Assembly (NCBI GenBank): GCA_964649715.1
Contig: CAZYTH010000003.1
Location: 4,713-68,712, forward strand
Source of the DNA: an uncultured Candidatus Saccharibacteria bacterium
GTDB lineage: Bacteria; Patescibacteriota; Minisyncoccia; Phycocordibacterales; UBA12445
Length of the DNA stretch: 64,000 bases
Reading direction: 5' to 3'
The position numbers and the translations under genes were made by a program. A model generated the notes under the pieces. That model made no database searches. It was not told the origin of the DNA and was given only the letters and a program-made list of their open reading frames with translations. Below are positions 10,959 to 36,171 of this stretch, one piece after another (the stretch's first letter is position 1; every line of letters starts with the position of its first letter).

Positions 10959-11064
10959 GAGAATTTTTGTAATTTTAATTGATTATAGATAGATTCTAAC
11001 ACCAAAAATATCTTTTGCAAAAAAACTTTTTTTACTGTATATTTACATAATAAAATTAAAAATT

Positions 11065-11119
11065 GTCGCGGTGGCGGAATGGCAGACCTGCCTGCCGGCA
11101 GGCAGGCGCAATAGACTCG
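11065..11119 (+). pseudogene. partial duplicate of the 5' half of tRNA-Leu(CAA), roughly nt 1-34, interrupted by a 20-nt perfect palindrome.
   Basis: GTCGCGGTGGCGGAATGGCAGAC + CTGCCTGCCGGCAGGCAGGC + GCAATAGACTC. Apart from the insert it matches 11365-11398 with one mismatch. Confidence 0.8.
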
Positions 11120-11121
11120 AT

Positions 11122-11355
11122 ATGTTTTATGTTTACGCAATAAAAAGCATTAAGAGAAAGTATATTTACGTCGGATTGACAAATCATATAGAAAAACGAT
11201 TTAATCAACACAATACAGGCAAAGAGAGGACCACCAAACCTTATCTTCCATACAATTTGATTCACGTAGAAGAATTCAAATTGCGAGTGGAAGCAAGAAA
11301 AAGAGAAAAGTTTCTTAAATCAGGGTCTGGAAAAGAGTATTTGAAATCATTATAG
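11122..11355 (+). CDS. small stand-alone GIY-YIG nuclease-domain protein (UPF0213/YhbQ-like). The ORF-track start at 11071 lies inside the tRNA fragment, so the MFYVYA start is preferred.
   Basis: Y-V-Y motif, Y-V-G-x-T, R...H.N.G and a downstream E (MFYVYAIKS...YIYVGLTNHIEKRFNQHNTG). 78 aa. Confidence 0.75.
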   Translation: MFYVYAIKSIKRKYIYVGLTNHIEKRFNQHNTGKERTTKPYLPYNLIHVEEFKLRVEARKREKFLKSGSGKEYLKSL

Positions 11356-11364
11356 TAATATTTT

Positions 11365-11447
11365 GCCGCGGTGGCGGAATGGCAGACGCAATAGACTCAA
11401 AATCTATCGAGGGCAACCTCATGAGGGTTCGAGTCCCTCCCGCGGCA
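11365..11447 (+). tRNA. tRNA-Leu(CAA), class II with a long variable arm.
   Basis: Acceptor GCCGCGG/CCGCGGC, anticodon stem ATAGA/TCTAT with loop CTCAAAA, long variable arm, T-arm GAGGG-TTCGAGT-CCCTC and discriminator A. No encoded CCA. Confidence 0.9.
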
Positions 11448-11584
11448 CAACAAATCGCTGAAAAGCGATTTTTGTATACGCGGAGCAAGCAAACTTCTTT
11501 GCTTGCGAGGGGGACGAGAAGGGGTTGAGTATATTACGCCGAGCAATGCGAAGGCGGAATACGAAACCCGTACCGAATATGTAA

Positions 11585-11608
11585 TGTTCGAGTCCCTCCC
11601 GCGGCACA
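11585..11608 (+). repeat. direct repeat of the last 22-24 nt of tRNA-Leu (T-loop plus 3' acceptor), about 135 bp downstream of the tRNA. It has the form of an att-like remnant.
   Basis: GTTCGAGTCCCTCCCGCGGCACAA is identical to 11428-11450. Confidence 0.8.
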
Positions 11609-11924
11609 AAAACAAATGGACCGAATGTGAAAACATTCGGTGATTTTGTTTTGTAGGCGTCGGAGGGGCGAGAAAACCGGAAGCGGGTACCGTCGCCGAC
11701 GTAGCAAAGCGAAGTGGCGCACGGTCGCTGAGGCGTAGATCGAGAAATTTTTGTGTAACAAAAATATTCGTGATCGAATCCTCAACCAAAAAACGGGCAG
11801 GCCTCCAATGGCACAATAAAAAACATCTTTCTTTTAAATTTTGTAAACACTAAAAAATATCCGAGCAAGTGAAGTTTTTTTATGCTATTATTTAAATAAT
11901 TAAGAATTAAAAGATAATAAAAAA

Positions 11925-14747
11925 ATGCGAAGGAACATAAAAAACTTTTTCCCCATCATGCTCATTATCATGTGCACTTTTTGGGGAGTTGTGTCGTTTG
12001 CTCAAGAGACAGCAACCGCACCAAACGGGCCATCGGCGCCCGACATGGAAGTAGCGCAAAACCAAGCAAAATCAGAGGCAAGTAAAACGGCCGAAGATAG
12101 AGCCGCAGAAGAATCTGCGGGAATGAGGGCTCAGTTTAAAAGAGAGTTCGGTGCACCGCCGGAAGCTTTTCAAAAACACGAACCACAAAAACCACAATTC
12201 GAACAACCCCAAAGAGTTCCGGATGAAGCGAAAAAATATTTAACAGATGCAGAACTTATTCCGATATACTGTGCGATGACCAAATGGAAGACAGGGCAAT
12301 TCTTCGGTGCAATGAATGCTCTTAAAGAAAACATGTTGCCGGCAATGCAAAAAGCCAAAGATGTTTTGGGCATTACGCTACCTCTGCCCAATATCGACAA
12401 AATGATCGAGGACGGAAAAACAAAAATAAACACTGTATGTTCCACAAAAGTACTTTCCGAGGCCGAGGACACTGTTATGTCATTCACCACCATGGGTCAA
12501 GATCTTGATCAGAACGGGATCGGTGCCTTCATGACCGAATTTGAAAATAAAATGAAAGCAAAAGGCAATGAAATAAAAACAAAGATCGAGGCGATGGTGT
12601 TACCTTTAGTGGAAGAAGAAAAAGCCAAAATACAACCGGAAATAGAAAAAGAGGCGCATTTCTATGTTAAAAATAATATAAAATTTGACCGAGAACCAAG
12701 CCCAGCCGATATTACAGCGGTCAGGACACAAGTTGAAAATTATCTCAAACCAATCATAGAAGCCAAAAAACAGGAAATAACCCAAAAGATCCAATCCAGA
12801 ATAAACGAGATCAAAGATAAAGAAGTTGCGGAAATTGAAGGACTCGGAAAGATGTTCGAGGGAATGGATCAAAAAATAAACGATGCCTCTCAAAAAGGTC
12901 TTGAGGAATACGACCAGTATAAAAAAGAAGCGTTCAGGCTCAGGAAAGAAGTTGTCTTCAAAATACTCGATAAAAACTTAGATGAGGGACTAAAAAAACT
13001 GGATGAGGCAGACAAAGACATCGAAGACGCAAGAAAAGATGACCCTTCTTTAAAGTCTGTTAGTCAGATAAAGTCAGAGATAGCACAGGATAGAAAAAAC
13101 TTGGAATCAAAACTTGAAGTCGCCATGGAGGCTGGAGATGAAATATCTTTCCAGCAGGCGGTCAACGATTTCAAGACAAAATGGGAAGCAGCGAGGGTTG
13201 AAAGCGAAAAAGCCGCCGAACAATCCATGACAAAAGCATGCAATATAGCCAAAGCTGAATTCGGAAAAGCAAAAGGCCAAATGGAAAGCAATCTCGCCAA
13301 ATTGAACAATATACAAAAAAAATGCGAAGGTGTTTTTTCCGATGAGTGTTCAAGTATCGCCGAATTCGGAGACAGATTCGAGACGTTAAAGAACAAAATA
13401 TCTGACATAAGATCAGAAATGGATATGGCCGAAAAAATGTGTGCGGATACGAATATGACGGACAAAGCGAGCATGGTCGCTCTTATGAGAAAGATCCAAA
13501 ACGACGGCGAGGATCTTAAAACATACGGCGACTCCCTGAACGCCGAAAAAACAAGAGTTATCGCCGATTCTGCGGCCAAAGCGTGTTCACAAATAATTCC
13601 ACAAATGGAAGCCGCCAGAACCGAAATAATCAAAAACGACCTCCAGATACTCGAAAATAATTTCAAAAAATGCGAAGGAAAGAACACCGACGATTGCGAT
13701 ATCATAAATCAGGCTTCGCCAAAATTCAAAGAATTTTCCAAAGACTCTTCTTCCTTCTCAGAAAAGATCACTGAAATAGAAAATTTCTGCAAGAACCCAA
13801 CAGGGGAAGCTTTTGAAAAAATATCAATTAGCTGGAATATACTAAAGGAGGAAGGTAATGAACTTCGACTAAAAGGAAAAGAATTACAAAGCGAGATTGC
13901 CGTAACTTTGAGCGAAAAAGCAATCTGTAAGGCAATAGTGCCCCAGATCAACTCCGCAAGAATGGAAGTAACCGCGGGAATTAAAAAAGTTTCCGACACC
14001 CAAAACAACTGTTTCGGAAAGAATGACGAAAAATGTCTCGCAATAAACGCCCTAAAACCGAAACTTGAAGAAATAACAAAAAGATCGAATATTCTTCTAT
14101 CTAGACTGGATGTTTCCCTTTCCGCTTGTGCCAACCCGGGAATCGTAAAACCGAGCCAAGATTTTCTTACCAAAGTTGAACAAAGCGGTATAAAAGAAGA
14201 AGCTACCGCCTTGATAAAATTGGCCAAAGAGTTAGCCGACCTTCAATCAAAAGCCACTCTTTTTGGAAAAGGAATAAAAATAGAAGCTGAAGACGAAATG
14301 TCTACGAAACTTCTTCCCAAAACAGAAAGTTGGCACTCAAGAGAAGAGACGAATCCGAGCTGGAGACCCCCCTTCTTCGGAACGGGTGTTTGGTATCTAT
14401 CAAGGGGTGGAGAGTATCTTCAATACAGATTCGAAGCACCAATATCCGCAAACTATGATATTTGGGTAAGAGACTATGTGGATAATTTCCAGCCGGCCGG
14501 AGTAAGACGAGTCACATATTACATTAACGGCAACAAAGTGATCACTGCACCGGAAGTGACAATGAATAAAAATAAAATAGATGCGAAGATTGGATCATTT
14601 GGTTGGCACAAGATAGCCGGAGCATACAAAATAAATGGAGGAAGTAATATACTTAAAGTCGAAAAAGAAAAAACAACCTCCGGAGCAGCGATACTTGATG
14701 TATTCTATATAACCAACAATCCGAACGACATCCCCCCGGAACTATAA
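11925..14747 (+). CDS. large (940 aa) secreted coiled-coil protein with recurring Cys pairs and a C-terminal beta-sandwich-like domain that may bind carbohydrate or act as an adhesin.
   Basis: Signal peptide, long Lys/Glu-rich heptad-like region with repeated KKCEG...C / NNCFGKNDEKC modules, and a C-terminal NYDIWVRDYVDNF...ILDVFYITNN domain. Confidence 0.7.
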   Translation: MRRNIKNFFPIMLIIMCTFWGVVSFAQETATAPNGPSAPDMEVAQNQAKSEASKTAEDRAAEESAGMRAQFKREFGAPPEAFQKHEPQKPQFEQPQRVPDEAKKYLTDAELIPIYCAMTKWKTGQFFGAMNALKENMLPAMQKAKDVLGITLPLPNIDKMIEDGKTKINTVCSTKVLSEAEDTVMSFTTMGQDLDQNGIGAFMTEFENKMKAKGNEIKTKIEAMVLPLVEEEKAKIQPEIEKEAHFYVKNNIKFDREPSPADITAVRTQVENYLKPIIEAKKQEITQKIQSRINEIKDKEVAEIEGLGKMFEGMDQKINDASQKGLEEYDQYKKEAFRLRKEVVFKILDKNLDEGLKKLDEADKDIEDARKDDPSLKSVSQIKSEIAQDRKNLESKLEVAMEAGDEISFQQAVNDFKTKWEAARVESEKAAEQSMTKACNIAKAEFGKAKGQMESNLAKLNNIQKKCEGVFSDECSSIAEFGDRFETLKNKISDIRSEMDMAEKMCADTNMTDKASMVALMRKIQNDGEDLKTYGDSLNAEKTRVIADSAAKACSQIIPQMEAARTEIIKNDLQILENNFKKCEGKNTDDCDIINQASPKFKEFSKDSSSFSEKITEIENFCKNPTGEAFEKISISWNILKEEGNELRLKGKELQSEIAVTLSEKAICKAIVPQINSARMEVTAGIKKVSDTQNNCFGKNDEKCLAINALKPKLEEITKRSNILLSRLDVSLSACANPGIVKPSQDFLTKVEQSGIKEEATALIKLAKELADLQSKATLFGKGIKIEAEDEMSTKLLPKTESWHSREETNPSWRPPFFGTGVWYLSRGGEYLQYRFEAPISANYDIWVRDYVDNFQPAGVRRVTYYINGNKVITAPEVTMNKNKIDAKIGSFGWHKIAGAYKINGGSNILKVEKEKTTSGAAILDVFYITNNPNDIPPEL

Positions 14748-14781
14748 CATTATTTTATTTTTAACTTTATAACTTGATAAT

Positions 14782-15378
14782 ATGAAAAAACTTAGAACTA
14801 ATCGCGGAATCGCCCCCCTTATTATTCTTCTAGTAATTGCGGTTCTTGCCATCGGTGGAGGTGCGGTCTATCTCAAATCACAAGATAAGCCCATATCCGT
14901 TGAATCAGCCAGAGAAAATATTCTCGGTATACAAAAAGACGAGACACTTGATTCTTTGGAGATAGATACCGAGGGTTTTAATTTCTCTCTATCTTCACTC
15001 CCGGCCATAGAAATAACCGCGCTCAATCTCGAAATACCAAAAATGGAAGTCCCTAAGATTGGCGGATTTAACACCAAACTAAATGTGATCTCGCCCACAA
15101 TAGATAAAAATAAAATAAACATATCGATGCCATCTCTCGCAAATATAACCCCAACGATATCCATTCCATCCAATCCAACAAACATCCCAACCGAAGCTCC
15201 CGCCAATCTGCCGCCGATTGACGTCCCCACAAGTCATACAGACGGGCAAGGCAGTATACCTTCAAGTGGCGGAGCTCCTCAGATAGACTGCTCTCAATTC
15301 CAAATGGTCCCTAGCTGTTCTTATGTTCCGGCAGGCCAAGCACAGGATGCATGTAAAAAATGCTTTCCAAGTAAATAA
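14782..15378 (+). CDS. membrane-anchored Pro/Thr/Ile-rich hypothetical protein.
   Basis: N-terminal transmembrane segment (RGIAPLIILLVIAVLAIGGG). Low-complexity PT-rich region with C-terminal Cys residues. No prepilin G-F-T-L-I-E motif. Confidence 0.5.
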   Translation: MKKLRTNRGIAPLIILLVIAVLAIGGGAVYLKSQDKPISVESARENILGIQKDETLDSLEIDTEGFNFSLSSLPAIEITALNLEIPKMEVPKIGGFNTKLNVISPTIDKNKINISMPSLANITPTISIPSNPTNIPTEAPANLPPIDVPTSHTDGQGSIPSSGGAPQIDCSQFQMVPSCSYVPAGQAQDACKKCFPSK

Positions 15379-15412: not shown

Positions 15413-15988
15413 ATGTACACTGAAAAAATATTTGAATTAAGAAATTTAAAAGGACTTTCTGAAAAACAAATTTCTGAACACTTAAAGCTTTACTCCGGAT
15501 ATGTAAAGAATACAAATAGTCTCCTGGAAAAAATAAGCGAGTTAAGAAACGAAGAAAATGGCGACTCTTATATGTTAGCTGAGCTAAAAAGACGTCTTGG
15601 TTTTGAATGGAACGGAATGAGACTCCACGAATATTATTTTAAAGAACTTGGTGGTGATGGTATTATAATGGAAGGCGCCCTCAAAAATGCGCTTTCAAAC
15701 GAATTTGGATGCTGTGATTCATGGTTGTCAGATTTTAAAAACACCGCTATCCAAAGGGGTGTCGGATGGGCGCTTCTTTGCAAGGACACAGAAACAGGTA
15801 AATTATTTAACATATGGATTGGAGATCACGATGTCGGACATCTCACTGGAACAAAAATAATACTGGCACTCGATATTTGGGAGCATGCTTTTCTTTTGGA
15901 TTATATTCCGTCTCAAAGAAAAAATTACATTGAAGCATTCTTATCCAATTTAAATTGGAAGGTTTTGGAGAAAAGATTCAATAAATAA
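15413..15988 (+). CDS. Fe/Mn superoxide dismutase-family protein, divergent.
   Basis: The C-terminal DIWEHAFLLDY aligns with the canonical DVWEHAYYxDY (Asp/His ligands). His in LHEYYF and EH near the N-terminus align with ligand positions. The second HH of the N-terminal motif is absent. Confidence 0.7.
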   Translation: MYTEKIFELRNLKGLSEKQISEHLKLYSGYVKNTNSLLEKISELRNEENGDSYMLAELKRRLGFEWNGMRLHEYYFKELGGDGIIMEGALKNALSNEFGCCDSWLSDFKNTAIQRGVGWALLCKDTETGKLFNIWIGDHDVGHLTGTKIILALDIWEHAFLLDYIPSQRKNYIEAFLSNLNWKVLEKRFNK

Positions 15989-16021
15989 AAAACCGCACGC
16001 TTTTGCGTACGGTTATAAGGT

Positions 16022-32482: not shown

Positions 32483-33301
32483 TTAATATTCGCAGACATT
32501 TATCTCTCCCATATCCACGCCCAGGATATCCGCTAAATATTCTTTAACTTCATATAGCCCTCCGATCTTGTCTATAAGGCCCGCCTCGATGGCTTTTGGA
32601 GGGATAATTGTTGATCCGTCAGCAAACTTGGCGACGTCTGAAATATCCAGTCCCCTGTTTGTGGCAATATCTTTAACCATAACTTCATGAAAATGTTCGA
32701 GGTCTTTCATTATCATTTGTCTTTCTGTATAAGTTAGAGGCCTGTCACCGTTAAACATGTCTTTATACTTACCTGATTGAAATTGATTGTAGTTGTATCC
32801 TTCTTTTTTGCTTTTCTCAACATCGTCAAAGAAAGATTGTATTATTGCAATAGAACCCAAGTCTGAAAATTCAGAAGCGAAAATTTTGTCTGCTCCAGTA
32901 GCAAGATGATAAGCGGCGGAGGTTCCTTGTTCTTTTATCAGTGCAACTGTTGGCTTTTTAACTCTTTTTAACGCTCTAGATATTTCTTGCCCAATCACTG
33001 GGCTTCCTCCTCCTGAATCTATCTCAATGATGATTGCCTCAACTTCTGGGTCTTCGTCTGCTTCTTCTATCAGGTCATAAATATCTCCAGCGACCGCTTC
33101 ATCTGTCCAGTCTTCGTTTCCCCCATTCTTATAACTTACGATCTCACCTCTTACTGGTATCTTTGCAACGTTGCAGTCACTGGAATAATCTTCCGGCTCA
33201 ATTATTACGTATAAAACAGAGACAAGAACTAAAAGGAGAAAGGACATTGCGACAGTGTCGAAGAATCTTCTCCATGTTATTTTTGAGAGGATGTTTTTCA
33301 T
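32483..33301 (-). CDS. sppA: signal peptide peptidase SppA (S49, 36K type).
   Basis: N-terminal transmembrane segment and EAIIIEIDSGGGSPVIGQEI...KPTVALIKEQGTSAAYHLATGADKIFA (Ser-Lys dyad region). Confidence 0.8.
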   Translation of the reverse strand: MKNILSKITWRRFFDTVAMSFLLLVLVSVLYVIIEPEDYSSDCNVAKIPVRGEIVSYKNGGNEDWTDEAVAGDIYDLIEEADEDPEVEAIIIEIDSGGGSPVIGQEISRALKRVKKPTVALIKEQGTSAAYHLATGADKIFASEFSDLGSIAIIQSFFDDVEKSKKEGYNYNQFQSGKYKDMFNGDRPLTYTERQMIMKDLEHFHEVMVKDIATNRGLDISDVAKFADGSTIIPPKAIEAGLIDKIGGLYEVKEYLADILGVDMGEINVCEY

Positions 33302-33341
33302 TTGATTATCAATTTAGCTTTTAAATTAAAATGATGCAAGA

Positions 33342-33364
33342 AACAGGCCCGAGATGAGCCTGTT
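33342..33364. repeat. second copy of the 31337 terminator hairpin, downstream of the 928-aa gene.
   Basis: AACAGGCCCGAGATGAGCCTGTT identical to the 31337 copy. The T-run is weak. Confidence 0.5.
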
Positions 33365-33384
33365 TTAACAAATCTATTTTAAAA

Positions 33385-36171
33385 TTAAAATCCAAACCAA
33401 GACCAGAAACGAGACCATACACTTTTCTTCACAACCGGAGGTTCTGTGTGTGTTGTGCTTGCGGTAAGTGTGGGCGTGGTTGTGGTACTAATAATTGGCA
33501 CAGGAGAGCCCGTTATCCAAGAGGCCAGACGACTAAACCAGGATAATTTCGATTGCTCCATTCGTGGAGGTGTCCTTTGGTCAGAAAATTCTTTATCTAA
33601 ATCTTTTGATTCAATAACGATCGATTCCTTAACAATAGACTCCTTCATTGGTTGAGCTTGCTGAGTTTGTTCTTCTGTTTTTTCCTGTACCTGAATAGCT
33701 TTTGGCTGTTCTACTACTTTCCCTGTAATTTGTTCTTTAGGGCTGGTAATTAATTCTCCTTTTTTATCTGTTTTAGCAATAAATAATTTTAGGGATTTAA
33801 GCTTATTCGCATCCATATTTTCTAAGGCTGAAAATTTAGAGTTAATATTGATCGGAATACTAGATAATGCACCCAAATTATTAAACCAATTATTTATTAC
33901 ATTCATAGATAATATTAACCCCATGGTATTATCTTCTCCAACATACCCACCCGAAGGTATTCCTATAAACTTACCGTTCTTTAAATAGGCGCCACCGCCA
34001 GAACTTCCGTGCTCTAAAATAGCAGTAGTTTTAAAATAATCTCCACTGTCGTCGATTCCACTAAAATCACCACTTGTGTACGTTAACTTTTTACCGAAAG
34101 CTGCAGGGTAACCGTAAGTTAAAATCTTTTCACCTAAAGCAATACTTATATTGCCCCTTGTGATATCAATGGGTGTAAAATTTATATTTCCGGAATTTCT
34201 AATTTTTAATAAAGCGATATCTTTATCCGGTGATGTCTTAACAACGTCAGCCACAAACCATCCATAGGGTTCATCGTCAAAATTGTTTATAAATCCAACA
34301 TAACAGCCTACGGTCTCAGAAATAACATGTTTATTGGTCAGAATAATTCCGATCGCATTAATTATCGTACCAGACCCCTGCGATGCAGATTGCGCATCAA
34401 CCGGACAAATAAGTTTTACTGTGGCCTTTAAAATCTTATCCTGGTTTACAACTTCTATAGACTCATCTGGTGGAGGTTGTGGCGGTCTATTTGGGGGTGT
34501 GCAGTATCTATCTGTAATGGGTGGTGCTGTTTGAACGTTAGGACAATCATAGGTTTTAGTACAAGTTCGGCTTTGTATTCCAGAAATAGAACATTCTCCC
34601 CAATAAGAACAGGTCCATTCATCAGCTGTACAAGATGGAATATAGGAACAAGATTGGGTCGTTATTGGCGAAGCAACTCCACCTTCACAATTTGATATCT
34701 TATTACATGTTCTTGATTGTGTTCTGTTTGCAGAACAAGCAGACCAACCACCACAGGACCAATCGCTAGAAGTACAAGGTGGCATATAAGTGCAATTCTG
34801 ACTTAAAATTGGACCACCACCAACACAACCATTCGGCAATGAAGAAATTATTGTTCTTGTTTGGGTTCCGTTAGAAGAACATGTGGACCATTCAGAATAT
34901 GTCCACGAAGTACATGTGGGTGGAATATATGTACAGTTTTGAATTATCACTGGCTCATATGTTCCGGTACAGATATCTGAATTTTTATTACATACTCTGG
35001 TTTGTTTACCACTAGGATTACACGCACCCCAAACACCGCAAGTATAATCATCAGCGTCACATGCTGGGCTACAAGATTGGGTTGTTGCCGGAGAGGGGGT
35101 ATCGATTAAAGAACAATCATTTGTCTTTGTGCATGTTCTATTCTGAGATCCACTGCGAGAGCAGGTGCTCCATGATTCGCATGTCCATGTGTCAGATATA
35201 CAGGCAGGGGTACATGCTTGGGTCGTAATTGGGGGAGGAGTTGTTATTCCAGGACAATCCAAAGACATGTAGCATGATCTTGTTTGCGAACCGTCTATTG
35301 AACATGAATTCCAATCATTACATATCCATGTATCAGCAGTACAAGTAGGAACATAGGTACAAGACTGCGTTGTGGCTGGTGATGGATCGTTTGTAAGCGG
35401 ACAATCATATGTCCTCGTGCATGTTCTGGTCTGGGTGCCATTAGACTGACATCCGGCCCAGCTTCCGCAAGACCAAGTATCAGCAGTACATTCTGGTGTG
35501 CAAGATTGAGTCGTTTCCGGCGACGGTGTATCTACCGCAGGACAATCTAATGCCTTGGTACAGGCTCTAGATTGATTACCGTACAGAGAACAAGAACTCC
35601 ATGACCCACAATCCCAAATATCTTGAGCGCAATGATCCTTAAGGAAAAAGCTACCCGATAGATAAGATGATGGCTGAGCGGTATTGTAACTCACCTCCCT
35701 ATAACAAGTATCTGTGGTGCATTTTTGTGCACAACTATCAACTTCACAAATTGGGGCCCTACCAAAGACTGTAGGAATTTCAATTTTCAGATTAACCGCC
35801 TTATTGTCGTAGCAAGATGGATCGGCGTATAATGAAGAAAAATAATTTAATGGGACTTTTAATATTATCTGGGAATCACTCCAAGAAATAACATTACTGT
35901 TAGATACTTCGGGAATTGAAGCGTTGACATAACTAACCCCGCAGCTATCGTTGATATACGCATACCCACTAACGTAACCCAACCCACTACTGTTGCGCTG
36001 AAAATGCGTAAAACGCCAAGAGCTATTAAAATTACCACCATTTATAGTAATGGTATCACCAGGAGAAATAATACTTGGGGTAATAGATGTAATAAAAGGC
36101 TCCCCGACTGCTAACGACGTGCCACCAAAAACGAAGAACAACGTAACCACAAACAACAGAATTTTTTTCAT
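33385..36171 (-). CDS. 928-aa secreted multidomain protein. It has an N-terminal IPT/TIG-like domain, eight tandem thrombospondin type-1-like Cys repeats, a trypsin-like (S1/Do-type) serine protease domain and a Thr-rich, Trp-rich C-terminal tail.
   Basis: Signal peptide. Repeats of about 47 aa follow the pattern W-x-C-x-x-W-S-x-C-S-x(3-4)-Q-(S/T)-R-x-C-T...DCP...TTQSC. Protease motifs: TNKHV (His), DIALLKI (Asp) and GSSGGGAY (Ser). Confidence 0.8.
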   Translation of the reverse strand: MKKILLFVVTLFFVFGGTSLAVGEPFITSITPSIISPGDTITINGGNFNSSWRFTHFQRNSSGLGYVSGYAYINDSCGVSYVNASIPEVSNSNVISWSDSQIILKVPLNYFSSLYADPSCYDNKAVNLKIEIPTVFGRAPICEVDSCAQKCTTDTCYREVSYNTAQPSSYLSGSFFLKDHCAQDIWDCGSWSSCSLYGNQSRACTKALDCPAVDTPSPETTQSCTPECTADTWSCGSWAGCQSNGTQTRTCTRTYDCPLTNDPSPATTQSCTYVPTCTADTWICNDWNSCSIDGSQTRSCYMSLDCPGITTPPPITTQACTPACISDTWTCESWSTCSRSGSQNRTCTKTNDCSLIDTPSPATTQSCSPACDADDYTCGVWGACNPSGKQTRVCNKNSDICTGTYEPVIIQNCTYIPPTCTSWTYSEWSTCSSNGTQTRTIISSLPNGCVGGGPILSQNCTYMPPCTSSDWSCGGWSACSANRTQSRTCNKISNCEGGVASPITTQSCSYIPSCTADEWTCSYWGECSISGIQSRTCTKTYDCPNVQTAPPITDRYCTPPNRPPQPPPDESIEVVNQDKILKATVKLICPVDAQSASQGSGTIINAIGIILTNKHVISETVGCYVGFINNFDDEPYGWFVADVVKTSPDKDIALLKIRNSGNINFTPIDITRGNISIALGEKILTYGYPAAFGKKLTYTSGDFSGIDDSGDYFKTTAILEHGSSGGGAYLKNGKFIGIPSGGYVGEDNTMGLILSMNVINNWFNNLGALSSIPININSKFSALENMDANKLKSLKLFIAKTDKKGELITSPKEQITGKVVEQPKAIQVQEKTEEQTQQAQPMKESIVKESIVIESKDLDKEFSDQRTPPRMEQSKLSWFSRLASWITGSPVPIISTTTTPTLTASTTHTEPPVVKKSVWSRFWSWFGF

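What the first reader, a model, noticed from the sequence alone, without database searches (positions are those of the whole stretch)
11925..15378. 940-aa secreted coiled-coil protein with repeated Cys-pair modules and a C-terminal beta-sandwich-like domain, followed by a PT-rich membrane-anchored protein
The large protein has a signal peptide. Its very long Lys/Glu-rich region has recurring C-x4-7-C motifs (KKCEGVFSDEC, KKCEGKNTDDC, NNCFGKNDEKC) that suggest disulfide-stapled helical repeats. The C-terminal domain (about 150 aa) looks like a carbohydrate-binding or adhesin module. The adjacent 198-aa gene encodes a transmembrane-anchored protein with an extended IPT/PT-rich spacer and C-terminal Cys residues. 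For a small-genome, possibly episymbiotic organism this pair is a candidate surface or attachment apparatus with no recognisable family.
Basis: inference. Interest (0 to 1): 0.55.

Follow-up and report, generated by a model that had tools for sequence, protein, structure and literature searches.

The report
Secreted helical stalk, glycan-binding tip, anchor partner
Two adjacent genes found only in ultra-small (CPR/Patescibacteria) bacteria encode a secreted, cysteine-stapled helical rod ending in a sugar-binding-type domain and a small membrane-anchored partner. Together they probably form a cell-surface tether, but its function has not been tested.

Summary

The large protein has four parts:
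- a canonical Sec signal peptide
- an N-terminal domain with one conserved Cys pair
- a long helical stalk ending in three homologous ~115-aa four-Cys modules (hhalign E 1e-14 to 1e-18), so these are four-Cys modules rather than Cys pairs
- a C-terminal β-sandwich of the CBM6/CBM35 clan (profile vs PDB E=2e-7; AF2 pLDDT 96.7; Foldseek TM up to 0.82), although the column aligned to the sugar-binding Asn is never Asn

The small protein has an N-in membrane anchor, a conserved ~45-aa motif, a Pro-rich spacer and an invariant terminal 4-Cys knot (52/52 members).

The two genes are adjacent in every locus examined, about 18 in all, starting from either gene. The partner follows the stalk even where the CBM tip is missing, doubled or replaced. 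No family model (Pfam, NCBIfam or PHROGs) covers the stalk or the partner.

The best reading is a membrane-tethered surface fibril with an exchangeable glycan-binding tip, which would be a new variant of the stalk-plus-tip adhesin design. Its function and ligand, and whether the two proteins touch, are inferred. Interest is moderate.

The parts
11925..14747 (+). Gene for the 940-aa secreted stalk-and-tip protein
   Evidence: ORF. There are 22 close full-length homologues and 162 representative clusters including partial architectures. Pfam, NCBIfam, PDB sequence search and PHROGs give no hit for the whole protein.
11925..12002 (+). Sec type-I signal peptide (aa 1-26: MRRNIKN / FFPIMLIIMCTFWGVV / SFA|QE)
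   Evidence: The layout of basic residues, hydrophobic core and A-x-A cleavage site is shared by 18 of 21 family members (the other three look N-terminally truncated). There is no lipobox. Judged by rule, because no SignalP-type tool was available.
12126..12221 (+). Conserved Pro-rich linear motif (aa 68-99; consensus QFExEFGAPPEAF...KPQFE..VP.E.KKY)
   Evidence: F71, G76, P78, P79 and E93 are invariant. Mean pairwise identity is 53%, yet the AF2 model has pLDDT below 60 here, which is typical of a segment that folds on a partner. A docking role is inference.
12222..12452 (+). N-terminal helical domain (aa 100-176) with the conserved Cys pair C116/C172
   Evidence: pLDDT is 75-91 and the region forms helices 100-173. 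C116 and C172 are invariant. This domain begins the core shared with the shorter stalk-only paralogues.
12453..13199 (+). Cys-free helical stalk (aa 177-425), with helices of 75, 52 and 48 residues among others
   Evidence: Secondary structure of the AF2 model. It is not detectably the same repeat as the 4-Cys modules (hhalign probability 5% or less). Only compositional PDB hits were found, such as ApoA-IV.
13200..13544 (+). Four-Cys helical module R1 (aa 426-540; C439, C467, C475, C506)
   Evidence: A helix-(C-x7-C turn)-helix-helix layout is predicted.
13545..13889 (+). Four-Cys helical module R2 (aa 541-655; C554, C583, C591, C622)
   Evidence: The model's helix 514-582 runs across the R1/R2 boundary.
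13890..14234 (+). Four-Cys helical module R3 (aa 656-770; C668, C696, C704, C735)
   Evidence: This is the least conserved module, at 36% mean pairwise identity.
14274..14744 (+). C-terminal CBM6/CBM35-clan β-sandwich tip (aa 784-940), ending in a conserved ..PPE[KL] tail
   Evidence: The family profile hits CBM35 of CITase 3wnl at E=2.2e-7, plus agarase CBM6 and CsxA CBM35. Of 43 members, 14 match Pfam CBM_6 and 7 match CBM_35. The AF2 domain model has pLDDT 96.7 and pTM 0.91. All top 50 Foldseek PDB hits are CBM35/6/36, with TMq up to 0.68 and TMt up to 0.82.
14782..15378 (+). Gene for the 198-aa membrane-anchored partner
   Evidence: ORF. The family has 52 clusters, all unannotated and without Pfam domains. 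The gene lies immediately downstream of a stalk gene in every locus examined.
14806..14874 (+). N-in signal-anchor transmembrane helix (aa 9-31), preceded by four K/R residues
   Evidence: Hydropathy. The uncharged span averages 24 aa across the family, and the segment does not meet prepilin criteria.
14947..15087 (+). Conserved extracellular motif (aa 56-102; LD.SLSPLP.L..SALN ... SVNTDFSY)
   Evidence: S69, S71 and N82 are invariant or nearly invariant in 24 diverse members.
15088..15285 (+). Variable spacer rich in Pro, Thr, Ser and Ile (aa 103-168)
   Evidence: Its length and sequence vary between homologues, with P117 invariant. A wall-spanning role is inference.
15286..15375 (+). C-terminal 4-Cys knot (aa 169-198; C-x2-F-x3-P-S-C-x11-C-x2-C-x4)
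   Evidence: Present in 52 of 52 family members, with two C-terminal flavours..CFPNK and ..CKAAGY. Whether it holds two disulfides or a metal site is not resolved.

Best explanation
The two genes encode a two-protein cell-surface fibril specific to CPR/Patescibacteria.

The large protein is exported by Sec and its signal peptide is removed. It folds into an elongated rod made of an N-terminal helical domain, long helical bundles and three tandem ~115-aa three-helix modules. In each module the helical hairpin is probably stapled twice, with C2-C3 closing the turn and C1-C4 clamping the open end. The rod ends in a β-sandwich of the CBM6/CBM35 clan.

The large protein has no anchor of its own. 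I propose that it is held at the surface by the co-encoded small protein, which sits in the membrane by an N-terminal helix, crosses the wall with a Pro-rich spacer and presents a conserved motif and a 4-Cys knot that dock onto the conserved N-terminal or stalk part of the rod. The CBM-like tip would then point outward and bind a glycan, on a partner or host cell or on particulate polysaccharide.

Shown: the domain anatomy, the export signal, the conserved Cys, the homology of the repeats, the fold and clan of the tip, the strict two-way gene pairing, and the fact that the tip can be exchanged.

Inferred: the disulfide connectivity, the physical contact between the two proteins, which end of the rod is nearest the cell, and the ligand.
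For: - Export: the signal peptide is conserved across the family and no member has another hydrophobic segment. Fourteen Cys are conserved.
- Rod: the AF2 model (mean pLDDT 76) is all-helical from 38 to 778, with helix-turn-helix connectivity. R1-R3 are homologous. In each module C1 lies 28-29 residues before the C-x7-C turn and C4 lies 31 residues after it, the geometry expected for an antiparallel hairpin clamped at both ends.
- Tip: CBM6/35 clan by profile, by Pfam hits of members and by fold. Distant relatives of the tip sit next to cohesin, dockerin and NHL domains, all extracellular.
- No own anchor: no LPXTG-like sorting signal, lipobox, C-terminal TM segment or wall-binding Pfam domain.
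- Partnership: the small gene directly follows the stalk gene, from an 11-nt overlap to a 99-nt gap, in all loci. This includes loci with unrelated neighbourhoods and four loci reached by starting from divergent small proteins.
- Partner tracks the stalk: it also follows stalk proteins with no CBM (L014, L017, L018; the L012 match also ends at residue 770), with a different tip (P0020 in L016), and in a locus where the stalk gene is duplicated in tandem and followed by a partial partner-like ORF (L015).
- Partner topology: basic N-terminus, a ~24-aa hydrophobic span, then a Pro-rich spacer and a universally conserved knot.
Against: - No experiment and no complex prediction links the two proteins. 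Adjacency shows a functional link but does not prove contact.
- The orientation, with the tip outward, is assumed.
- The column aligned to the Asn of CITase's 'N-L-D' motif is I/L/V and never Asn (CBM6/35 signatures from PMC9843283). If that Asn is the region-C residue, canonical sugar binding is not guaranteed.
- The window's own tip sequence does not reach any Pfam threshold.
- The tip is as conserved as the stalk core. In three related genomes the pair lies among housekeeping genes (ParB, SOD, GAPDH, MltG). That looks more like a core envelope component than a fast-evolving host adhesin.
- Inter-domain geometry is unreliable (pTM 0.37) and I could not inspect model coordinates, so the disulfide pairing is deduced from spacing only.
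Confidence: 0.5

Rival explanations
1. This is an envelope-structural tether with the opposite orientation. The CBM-like domain binds the cell's own wall (peptidoglycan or a secondary wall polymer), as many C-terminal wall-binding modules of monoderm surface proteins do. The rod and its membrane partner then act as a spacer or scaffold between membrane, wall and S-layer rather than as an adhesin.
For: - The tip is as conserved as the stalk core, as expected for a constant self ligand.
- In three related genomes the pair lies in a conserved housekeeping neighbourhood that includes wall enzymes (an SLT lytic transglycosylase and MltG/YceG).
- No second copy was found in the window.
- A CBM35 domain that works on peptidoglycan is described for C. 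jejuni Ape1 (abstract of bioRxiv 10.1101/2021.09.23.461501, listed).
Against: - Several lineages keep the stalk and partner without any CBM (L014, L017, L018), carry two CBMs (P0042, P0045), or carry a different tip (P0020). That is easier to reconcile with an exchangeable outward-facing tip than with an essential anchor.
- A membrane-anchored partner would already provide the anchoring.
Confidence: 0.25
2. This is a non-catalytic polysaccharide-capture protein. The rod displays a glycan-binding module to hold polysaccharide or oligosaccharide near the cell for scavenging, by analogy with the CBMs of cellulosome scaffoldins or with surface glycan-binding proteins, and has no role in cell-cell attachment.
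For: - The tip belongs to the CBM6/35 clan.
- Relatives of the tip occur with cohesin and dockerin modules.
- CPR bacteria are fermenters that depend on external substrates (general knowledge).
Against: - No glycoside hydrolase, transporter or other glycan-utilisation gene is consistently next to the pair.
- The column aligned to the sugar-binding Asn is never Asn.
- Stalk-only variants exist.
Confidence: 0.15
3. The small protein is a type-IV-pilin-like subunit with a class III signal peptide, and the large protein is a pilus-associated tip adhesin.
For: - The window protein has R-G|IAPLII followed by a long hydrophobic helix.
- The family profile gives weak hits to the N-terminal helices of archaellins and a geopilin (E 0.08-1.7).
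- Type IV pili are prominent in CPR bacteria (general knowledge).
Against: - Only 23 of 52 family members have a [KR]-[GA]-hydrophobic junction, none has Glu at +5, and many start 'MKK' directly followed by the hydrophobic span.
- There are no Pfam pilin hits.
- The best PDB hit is FliL, an ordinary bitopic membrane protein.
- No pilus assembly genes are consistently nearby.
Confidence: 0.03
4. This is an α-helical pore-forming toxin (of the ClyA, Hbl/Nhe or YaxAB type) with a receptor-binding lectin domain, used to extract nutrients from a host.
For: The protein is long, helical and secreted, carries a lectin-like domain, is encoded as a two-gene unit, and the organisms have a parasitic lifestyle (general knowledge).
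Against: - No family member has a hydrophobic hairpin or tongue beyond the signal peptide.
- Disulfide staples would hinder the large refolding that α-PFTs require.
- No structural hit to this toxin class was found. The only toxin hits are Cry protoxins with rmsd above 20 Å.
Confidence: 0.03
5. This is a phage-derived receptor-binding protein or tail fibre carried on a prophage.
For: Weak Foldseek hits to phage minor tail and tail-fibre proteins that share a β-sandwich tip. A GIY-YIG gene and tRNA fragments lie upstream.
Against: - There are no PHROGs hits.
- The viral matches have TMq of about 0.1 and mostly very large rmsd.
- The pair keeps the same housekeeping neighbours across genomes at 49-52% identity.
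- A Sec signal peptide and a membrane partner are not features of phage fibres.
Confidence: 0.02

Closest known systems
CBM35 / CBM6 carbohydrate-binding modules (e.g. CBM35 of B. circulans CITase 3wnl, C. thermocellum CBM35 2w1w/2w47, CsxA CBM35 2vzp, agarase CBM6 2cdo)
   Same: - Same β-jelly-roll sandwich (TMt up to 0.82, TMq up to 0.68).
- Significant profile similarity (E=2.2e-7).
- Shared core motifs in the alignment: G-x-Y..(W/V)-x-R, (I/V)-D-G, L-x-x-G-x-H, and L-D in the last strand.
- A near-invariant Glu/Asp pair (E789, D925) may correspond to the conserved calcium site of CBM35s (PMC5408701). That correspondence is my inference.
   Different: - About 160 aa instead of about 130, with an N-terminal extension.
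- The column under the Asn of CITase's 'N-L-D', which I take to be region C, is I/L/V and never Asn in 43 members.
- It is attached to a helical rod and not to a carbohydrate-active enzyme.
- The window sequence itself falls below all Pfam thresholds.
- BT0996-C (7zvo), which also lacks the signatures yet binds polygalacturonate (PMC9843283), is a precedent and is in the hit list (rank 45).
Fibrillar surface adhesins of monoderm bacteria (stalk of tandem repeats plus a distal adhesive domain, e.g. LPXTG-anchored adhesins)
   Same: A signal peptide, an elongated stalk with tandem repeats, a terminal ligand-binding domain, and a Pro-rich region suited to crossing the wall.
   Different: - The stalk is α-helical and Cys-stapled instead of being built from Ig-like or β repeats.
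- There is no LPXTG sorting signal, lipobox or wall-binding module.
- The membrane anchor and the Pro-rich spacer are on a separate, obligately co-encoded small protein.
Spectrin-like three-helix repeats (spectrin/α-actinin; bacterial EzrA)
   Same: The period of about 115 aa is close to the 106 aa of spectrin (general knowledge). Each unit is predicted as three helices, and one helix (514-582) runs continuously from one unit into the next.
   Different: - No sequence similarity to the Pfam Spectrin family, and no structural hit for the stalk.
- It is extracellular.
- Each unit carries four conserved Cys, which spectrin repeats lack.
- The three-dimensional packing could not be checked.
Phage receptor-binding fibres (rod plus C-terminal β-sandwich tip)
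   Same: The overall design of a rod ending in an exchangeable lectin-like tip. There are weak fold hits to minor tail proteins.
   Different: No homology. The gene is chromosomal and lies in conserved synteny, the protein is Sec-exported, and it is paired with a membrane protein.

Membership tests
CBM6/CBM35 clan (C-terminal domain) | β-jelly-roll sandwich fold of about 120-140 aa | tested here: met
   AF2 domain model with pLDDT 96.7 and 11 strands. All top 50 Foldseek PDB hits are CBM35/6/36, with TMt up to 0.82.
CBM6/CBM35 clan (C-terminal domain) | Significant sequence similarity to family members or the Pfam models CBM_6 / CBM_35 | tested here: inconclusive
   The family profile hits CBM35/CBM6 PDB chains (E=2.2e-7). 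Of 43 aligned members, 14 match CBM_6 and 7 match CBM_35, some above the gathering score. The window's own domain gives no Pfam hit even at E<=1.
CBM6/CBM35 clan (C-terminal domain) | Invariant 'region C' Asn at the base of the variable-loop binding site (PMC9843283) | tested here: not met
   The column aligned to the Asn of CITase 'N-L-D' is I20/L11/V8/T1/Q1/M1 and never N. That this Asn is the region-C residue is inferred from the motif and was not checked against a structure.
CBM6/CBM35 clan (C-terminal domain) | 'Region A' Trp that stacks on the sugar (PMC9843283; Trp507 in PsCITase, PMC5408701) | tested here: inconclusive
   A conserved F/W892-G-W894 (W894 in 42/43) lies in the same loop as the CITase W-G-T-W, but the alignment is offset by 1-5 positions.
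CBM6/CBM35 clan (C-terminal domain) | Appended to a carbohydrate-active catalytic module | tested here: not met
   No catalytic domain is present in the protein or consistently in neighbouring genes.
CBM6/CBM35 clan (C-terminal domain) | Demonstrated carbohydrate binding | not testable with these tools
   Needs recombinant protein and glycan arrays or ITC.
Sec-exported protein (type I signal peptide) | Basic n-region, hydrophobic h-region and an A-x-A cleavage site | tested here: met
   MRRNIKN/FFPIMLIIMCTFWGVV/SFA|QE in the window. The same layout holds in 18 of 21 family members, and the other three look N-terminally truncated. Judged by rule, because no SignalP-type predictor was available.
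Type IV pilin-like proteins (small protein) | Class III signal peptide: Gly/Ala at -1 after basic residues, and Glu at +5 in bacterial pilins | tested here: not met
   Only 23 of 52 members have [KR][GA][hydrophobic], none has Glu at +5, and many lack any leader beyond 'MKK'. No pilin Pfam hit was found.
Sortase-anchored (LPXTG) or lipoprotein surface proteins (large protein) | C-terminal LPXTG followed by a TM segment and basic tail, or an N-terminal lipobox | tested here: not met
   No member has either feature. The C-terminus ends in a conserved ..PPE[KL] tail, and there is no C-terminal hydrophobic segment.
Spectrin-like repeat | Three-helix unit of about 106 aa whose last helix is continuous with the first helix of the next unit | tested here: inconclusive
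α-helical pore-forming toxins (ClyA/Hbl/Nhe/YaxAB) | A hydrophobic β-tongue or helical hairpin for membrane insertion | tested here: not met
   No 19-residue window with mean hydropathy above 1.6 occurs beyond residue 60 in any of the 21 members.

The most novel reading that the evidence does not exclude
The pair is the core of a host-contact organelle specific to CPR bacteria. In this reading the organelle is a membrane-tethered, disulfide-hardened α-helical spike, and its lectin tip is swapped, doubled or lost between lineages to match the surface glycans of different host cells. The small Cys-knot protein would be a previously unknown kind of surface-anchoring adaptor that replaces sortase or SLH-type anchoring in these reduced genomes.
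Probability: 0.2. Interest if true: 0.7.

Novelty: new variant of a known kind. Interest (0 to 1): 0.45.

Why it matters
How CPR/Patescibacteria, a large fraction of bacterial diversity, hold on to other cells or substrates is largely unknown beyond type IV pili, and most of their surface proteins are unannotated.

This locus provides a concrete, testable candidate. It is a strictly paired two-gene module with a defined export signal, a well-predicted glycan-binding-type tip that can be expressed on its own, and an unannotated anchoring partner.

It also defines three sequence families with no existing model: the N-terminal domain plus stalk, the 115-aa four-Cys helical module, and the small TM/Cys-knot partner. 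These could be added to family databases to improve annotation of CPR genomes.

If the tip turns out to bind the cell's own wall, the result is more ordinary: a lineage-specific envelope scaffold.

Tried and rejected
- Single-sequence searches of both proteins against Pfam, NCBIfam, PDB sequences and PHROGs found nothing meaningful.
- The whole-family profile against the PDB gave only compositional helix matches, to ApoA-IV, HA2 and designed SNARE bundles. I rejected these as homology.
- BLASTP of the protein against itself found no internal repeat. Profile-profile comparison was needed to show it.
- The Cys-free stalk (aa 85-425) is not the same repeat as R1-R3.
- The prepilin idea for the small protein was tested and rejected.
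- A phage origin was rejected (plus synteny).
- The pore-forming toxin idea was rejected because no hydrophobic hairpin exists.
- Small ORFs upstream of the large gene in related loci are not homologous to one another, so they are not part of the unit.
- No paralogue of either gene or of the CBM exists elsewhere in the window. The other large secreted protein (33385-36171, minus strand) is an unrelated trypsin-like protease.
- No Dsb- or VKOR-like candidate was found in the window, which is uninformative.
- Alternative tips and stalk-only paralogues have no Pfam domains.
- The last deep protein search, with the CBM profile, returned only six short unnamed proteins.
- Three literature searches found nothing on this family. 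Searches did lead to the two CBM35 papers cited here.

Full report
**Observation.** The large protein is Lys/Glu-rich (K 11.5%, E 10.3%). The quoted motifs KKCEGVFSDEC, KKCEGKNTDDC and NNCFGKNDEKC are real C-x7-C pairs at 467/475, 583/591 and 696/704. They are the inner halves of three four-Cys sets (439/467/475/506, 554/583/591/622, 668/696/704/735) with spacing 28-29/8/31 and a period of about 115 aa. Apart from one Cys in the signal peptide, the only other Cys are C116 and C172.

**Is it more than chance?** Yes. A search of 5.8 billion proteins found 22 close homologues, most of them full length (36-56% identity), none with a Pfam domain or a functional name. In a 21-sequence alignment all 14 Cys outside the signal peptide are invariant or at least 90% conserved. 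Profile-profile comparison of the three ~115-aa segments gives probabilities of 98-99% and E-values of 6.6e-14 to 3.5e-18, in register over about 105-111 residues. The Cys-free stalk upstream (aa 85-425) shows no such relationship. BLASTP of the protein against itself had missed the repeat.

**Export.** The N-terminus reads MRRNIKN / FFPIMLIIMCTFWGVV / SFA|QE. Of the 21 family members, 18 have 2-3 K/R, a hydrophobic core and A-x-A followed by Q/E, and the other three look N-terminally truncated. No member has any other TM-like segment. There is no lipobox and no LPXTG-type signal, and the C-terminus ends in a conserved ..PPE[KL] tail. The finding's stated refutation criteria, an intracellular family match or no signal peptide, are therefore not met. 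No SignalP-type tool was available, so this is a rule-based judgement backed by family conservation. NCBI's gene call starts at Met12 (929 aa), which removes the basic residues that the rest of the family has before the hydrophobic core.

**Anatomy of the large protein.**
- The full-length AlphaFold2 model built on the family alignment has mean pLDDT 76 but pTM 0.37. Local structure is usable and global arrangement is not.
- Residues 38-778 are helical. Helices of 75, 52 and 48 residues make up the Cys-free stalk.
- Each four-Cys module then reads long helix, C-x7-C turn, helix, loop, helix. Helix 514-582 runs across the R1/R2 boundary.
- C1 lies 28-29 residues before the turn and C4 lies 31 residues after it. 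An antiparallel hairpin would bring C1 next to C4 and C2 next to C3. I infer a double staple per module but could not measure distances, because model coordinates are not exposed.
- The layout resembles spectrin-type three-helix repeats, but no sequence or fold match supports homology.
- From helix lengths the rod could be roughly 20-35 nm long if the bundles stack end to end (inference).
- 'Coiled coil' is thus only loosely right.

**The C-terminal domain.**
- Alone, the window's tip gives no Pfam hit.
- An exhaustive HMMER search of 1.84 billion cluster representatives found 162 clusters and showed that the protein is modular. The tip (aa ~780-939) occurs in many other architectures, and the N-terminal region plus stalk occurs in shorter proteins.
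- In distant relatives the tip-homologous region scores above Pfam's gathering score for CBM_35 (P0105) and CBM_6 (P0064). It sits beside cohesin, dockerin and NHL domains.
- A 43-sequence profile of the tip hits solved CBM35/CBM6 modules directly: CITase 3wnl at E=2.2e-7, plus agarase CBM6, CsxA CBM35 and C. thermocellum CBM35. Of the 43 members, 14 match CBM_6 and 7 match CBM_35 individually.
- The domain model has pLDDT 96.7 and pTM 0.91. Its top 50 PDB matches are all CBM35/6/36, with TMq up to 0.68 and TMt up to 0.82. The full-length model gave the same answer.

**Is the tip a regular CBM6/35?**
- According to PMC9843283, CBM6/35 binding sites have a 'region A' Trp and an invariant 'region C' Asn.
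- In the alignment to CITase CBM35, the column under the Asn of 'N-L-D' is I/L/V in 39 of 43 members and never Asn. That this Asn is the region-C residue is my inference from the motif.
- An aromatic loop, F/W892-G-W894, lies in the same loop as the CITase canonical Trp (PMC5408701), but the alignment is offset by a few residues, so this point is inconclusive.
- E789 (42/43) and D925 (43/43) may form the conserved structural calcium site (inference).
- I therefore file the tip as a divergent branch of the clan and not as a regular CBM35. A precedent, BT0996-C, lacks both signatures and still binds polygalacturonate (PMC9843283), so the missing Asn does not exclude glycan binding.

**The small protein.**
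- It has four K/R residues, then a 23-residue hydrophobic span (aa 9-31), a conserved motif (LD.SLSPLP.L..SALN...SVNTDFSY), a variable Pro-rich spacer, and a terminal C-x2-F-x3-PS-C-x11-C-x2-C.
- A profile search found 52 clusters, all unannotated. The knot is present in 52 of 52.
- The R-G-I-A-P junction and weak profile hits to archaellin and geopilin N-terminal helices suggested a prepilin. Only 23 of 52 members have a [KR][GA]-hydrophobic junction, none has Glu at +5, and many begin 'MKK' directly followed by the hydrophobic span. It is an ordinary N-in signal anchor.
- Whether the knot holds two disulfides or a metal ion is open.

**The pair.**
- In a relative at 52% identity the neighbourhood is syntenic (ParB ... 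large, small, SOD ... GAPDH, YceG), and its downstream ORF is 50% identical to the window's small protein (E=4e-58).
- Two homologues at 38-40% identity lie in unrelated neighbourhoods and still have the partner directly downstream.
- A profile of the partner found it immediately after the large gene in all 13 loci then in hand, about 10 of them independent. These included eight loci from a scan of GTDB species genomes, labelled Patescibacteria, Uhrbacteria, Buchananbacteria, Paceibacterota and Saccharibacteria, one unclassified, and one labelled Gammaproteobacteria that I suspect is mislabelled.
- The partner also follows a 632-aa stalk-only paralogue (L014). It follows a 748-aa paralogue that is itself followed by a second stalk gene and a partial partner-like ORF (L015). 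And it follows P0020, whose C-terminal domain is unrelated to the CBM (L016).
- Starting instead from the four most divergent small proteins with long contigs, a stalk-family gene lay immediately upstream every time (566, 788, 933 and 943 aa), and two of these lack the CBM.
- Spacing between the two genes ranges from an 11-nt overlap to a 99-nt gap.
- The link is therefore two-way, and the partner tracks the stalk, while the tip can be absent, single, double (P0042, P0045) or replaced.

**Mechanism.** The large protein is exported and has no anchoring device of its own. The partner has exactly what is missing, a membrane helix and a Pro-rich segment long enough to cross a wall, and it is always co-encoded. 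The most economical model is a membrane-tethered rod whose conserved N-terminal part docks on the partner's ectodomain and whose tip points outward to bind a glycan. The candidate docking region includes the Pro-rich motif at aa 68-99, which has 53% mean pairwise identity but low pLDDT. The export signal, anatomy, conservation, tip fold and pairing are shown. The contact, the orientation and the ligand are inferred.

**What tempers the adhesin reading.** The tip is as conserved (55% mean pairwise identity) as the stalk core (55-57%) and more conserved than R3 (36%). In the window's closest relatives the pair sits among housekeeping genes. That fits a conserved ligand, which could be the cell's own wall, hence the structural-tether rival at 0.25. 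A polysaccharide-capture role is possible, but no glycan-utilisation genes accompany the pair. The pilin, pore-forming toxin and phage-fibre readings were tested and are unlikely.

**Novelty and verdict.** The design of stalk plus binding tip plus wall-spanning anchor is known from monoderm fibrillar adhesins, and the tip belongs to a known clan. The stalk's N-terminal domain, the four-Cys helical module and the small Cys-knot anchor have no family model and no literature that I could find. Placing the anchor on a separate, obligately paired protein is unusual. I rate this a new variant of a known kind, of moderate interest (0.45). It is a well-defined, experimentally approachable candidate for a CPR surface structure, but its function is unproven.

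Noticed in passing
window 11060-11615: Fragments of tRNA-Leu(CAA) flank a GIY-YIG gene. The first ~37 nt of the tRNA are copied at about 11065-11125, with a 19-nt palindromic insert (ctgcctgccggcaggcagg), and this copy overlaps the start of a 94-aa GIY-YIG ORF (11071-11355; Pfam E=5.8e-16). The intact tRNA is at 11365-11448. Its last 23 nt recur at 11588-11610, followed by a terminator-like hairpin at 11620-11641. This looks like the footprint of a homing-endonuclease insertion at a tRNA gene.
   Followed up: partly
window 11645-11825: A GC-richer non-coding stretch lies between the tRNA remnants and the large gene. It folds better than shuffled controls (-61.1 kcal/mol, z = -2.9), has no Rfam match at E<=1, and has no copy in the 20 related loci. 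It remains unexplained.
   Followed up: partly
window 11891-11925: The only promoter-like hexamer pair upstream of the large gene ends 7 nt before the ATG, and no Shine-Dalgarno-like sequence is visible. The mRNA may be leaderless. NCBI's gene call starts at Met12 instead (929 aa).
   Followed up: no
window 15413-15988: An Fe/Mn superoxide-dismutase-like gene follows the pair on the same strand after 34 nt. Its C-terminal domain match is strong (E=3.9e-23) and its N-terminal match falls below threshold. No terminator-like site lies between it and the pair. A hairpin at 15991-16014 sits between it and the convergent maf gene. SOD also follows the pair in L002 and L003 but not in L004 or L005. 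Co-transcription is possible.
   Followed up: partly
L015:4001-9498: The stalk gene is duplicated in tandem. A 748-aa stalk gene with a 213-aa partner is followed directly by a 736-aa stalk paralogue and a 133-aa partner-like ORF that matches only the N-terminal two-thirds of the partner profile and appears to lack the Cys knot.
   Followed up: partly
P0020 (L016:257-3022); P0042, P0045, P0056, P0064: The tip is exchangeable. P0020 keeps the stalk and the partner but has an unrelated ~170-aa C-terminal domain with no Pfam hit. P0042 and P0045 carry two tandem CBM-like domains on a stalk. P0056 and P0064 have two copies without a full stalk.
   Followed up: partly
P0105, P0121, P0104, P0140 (relatives of the tip domain): The same CBM-like domain occurs in other metagenomic proteins fused to cohesin, with or without dockerin, or to NHL β-propellers. 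This hints at cohesin-dockerin-type surface assemblies in the organisms that carry it. Their taxonomy is unknown.
   Followed up: no
window 14733-14744 and all homologues: The large protein ends in a conserved tail..N-[ED]-x-P-P-E-[KL]-COOH, in which P937 and E939 are at least 90% conserved. It could be a recognition or processing motif, and its role is unknown.
   Followed up: no
window 32483-36171 (- strand): A second large secreted protein (928 aa, with a signal peptide, Cys-rich repeats and a trypsin-like peptidase domain) lies next to an S49/NfeD-type peptidase with a TM segment. It is unrelated to the finding.
   Followed up: partly
L011 and L007 (record titles): Two homologous loci come from MAGs labelled 'Gammaproteobacteria' (on a 9-kb contig) and 'Saccharibacteria'. 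All other named sources are Parcubacteria-type lineages. The two labels probably reflect mis-binning or mislabelling rather than a wider distribution.
   Followed up: no
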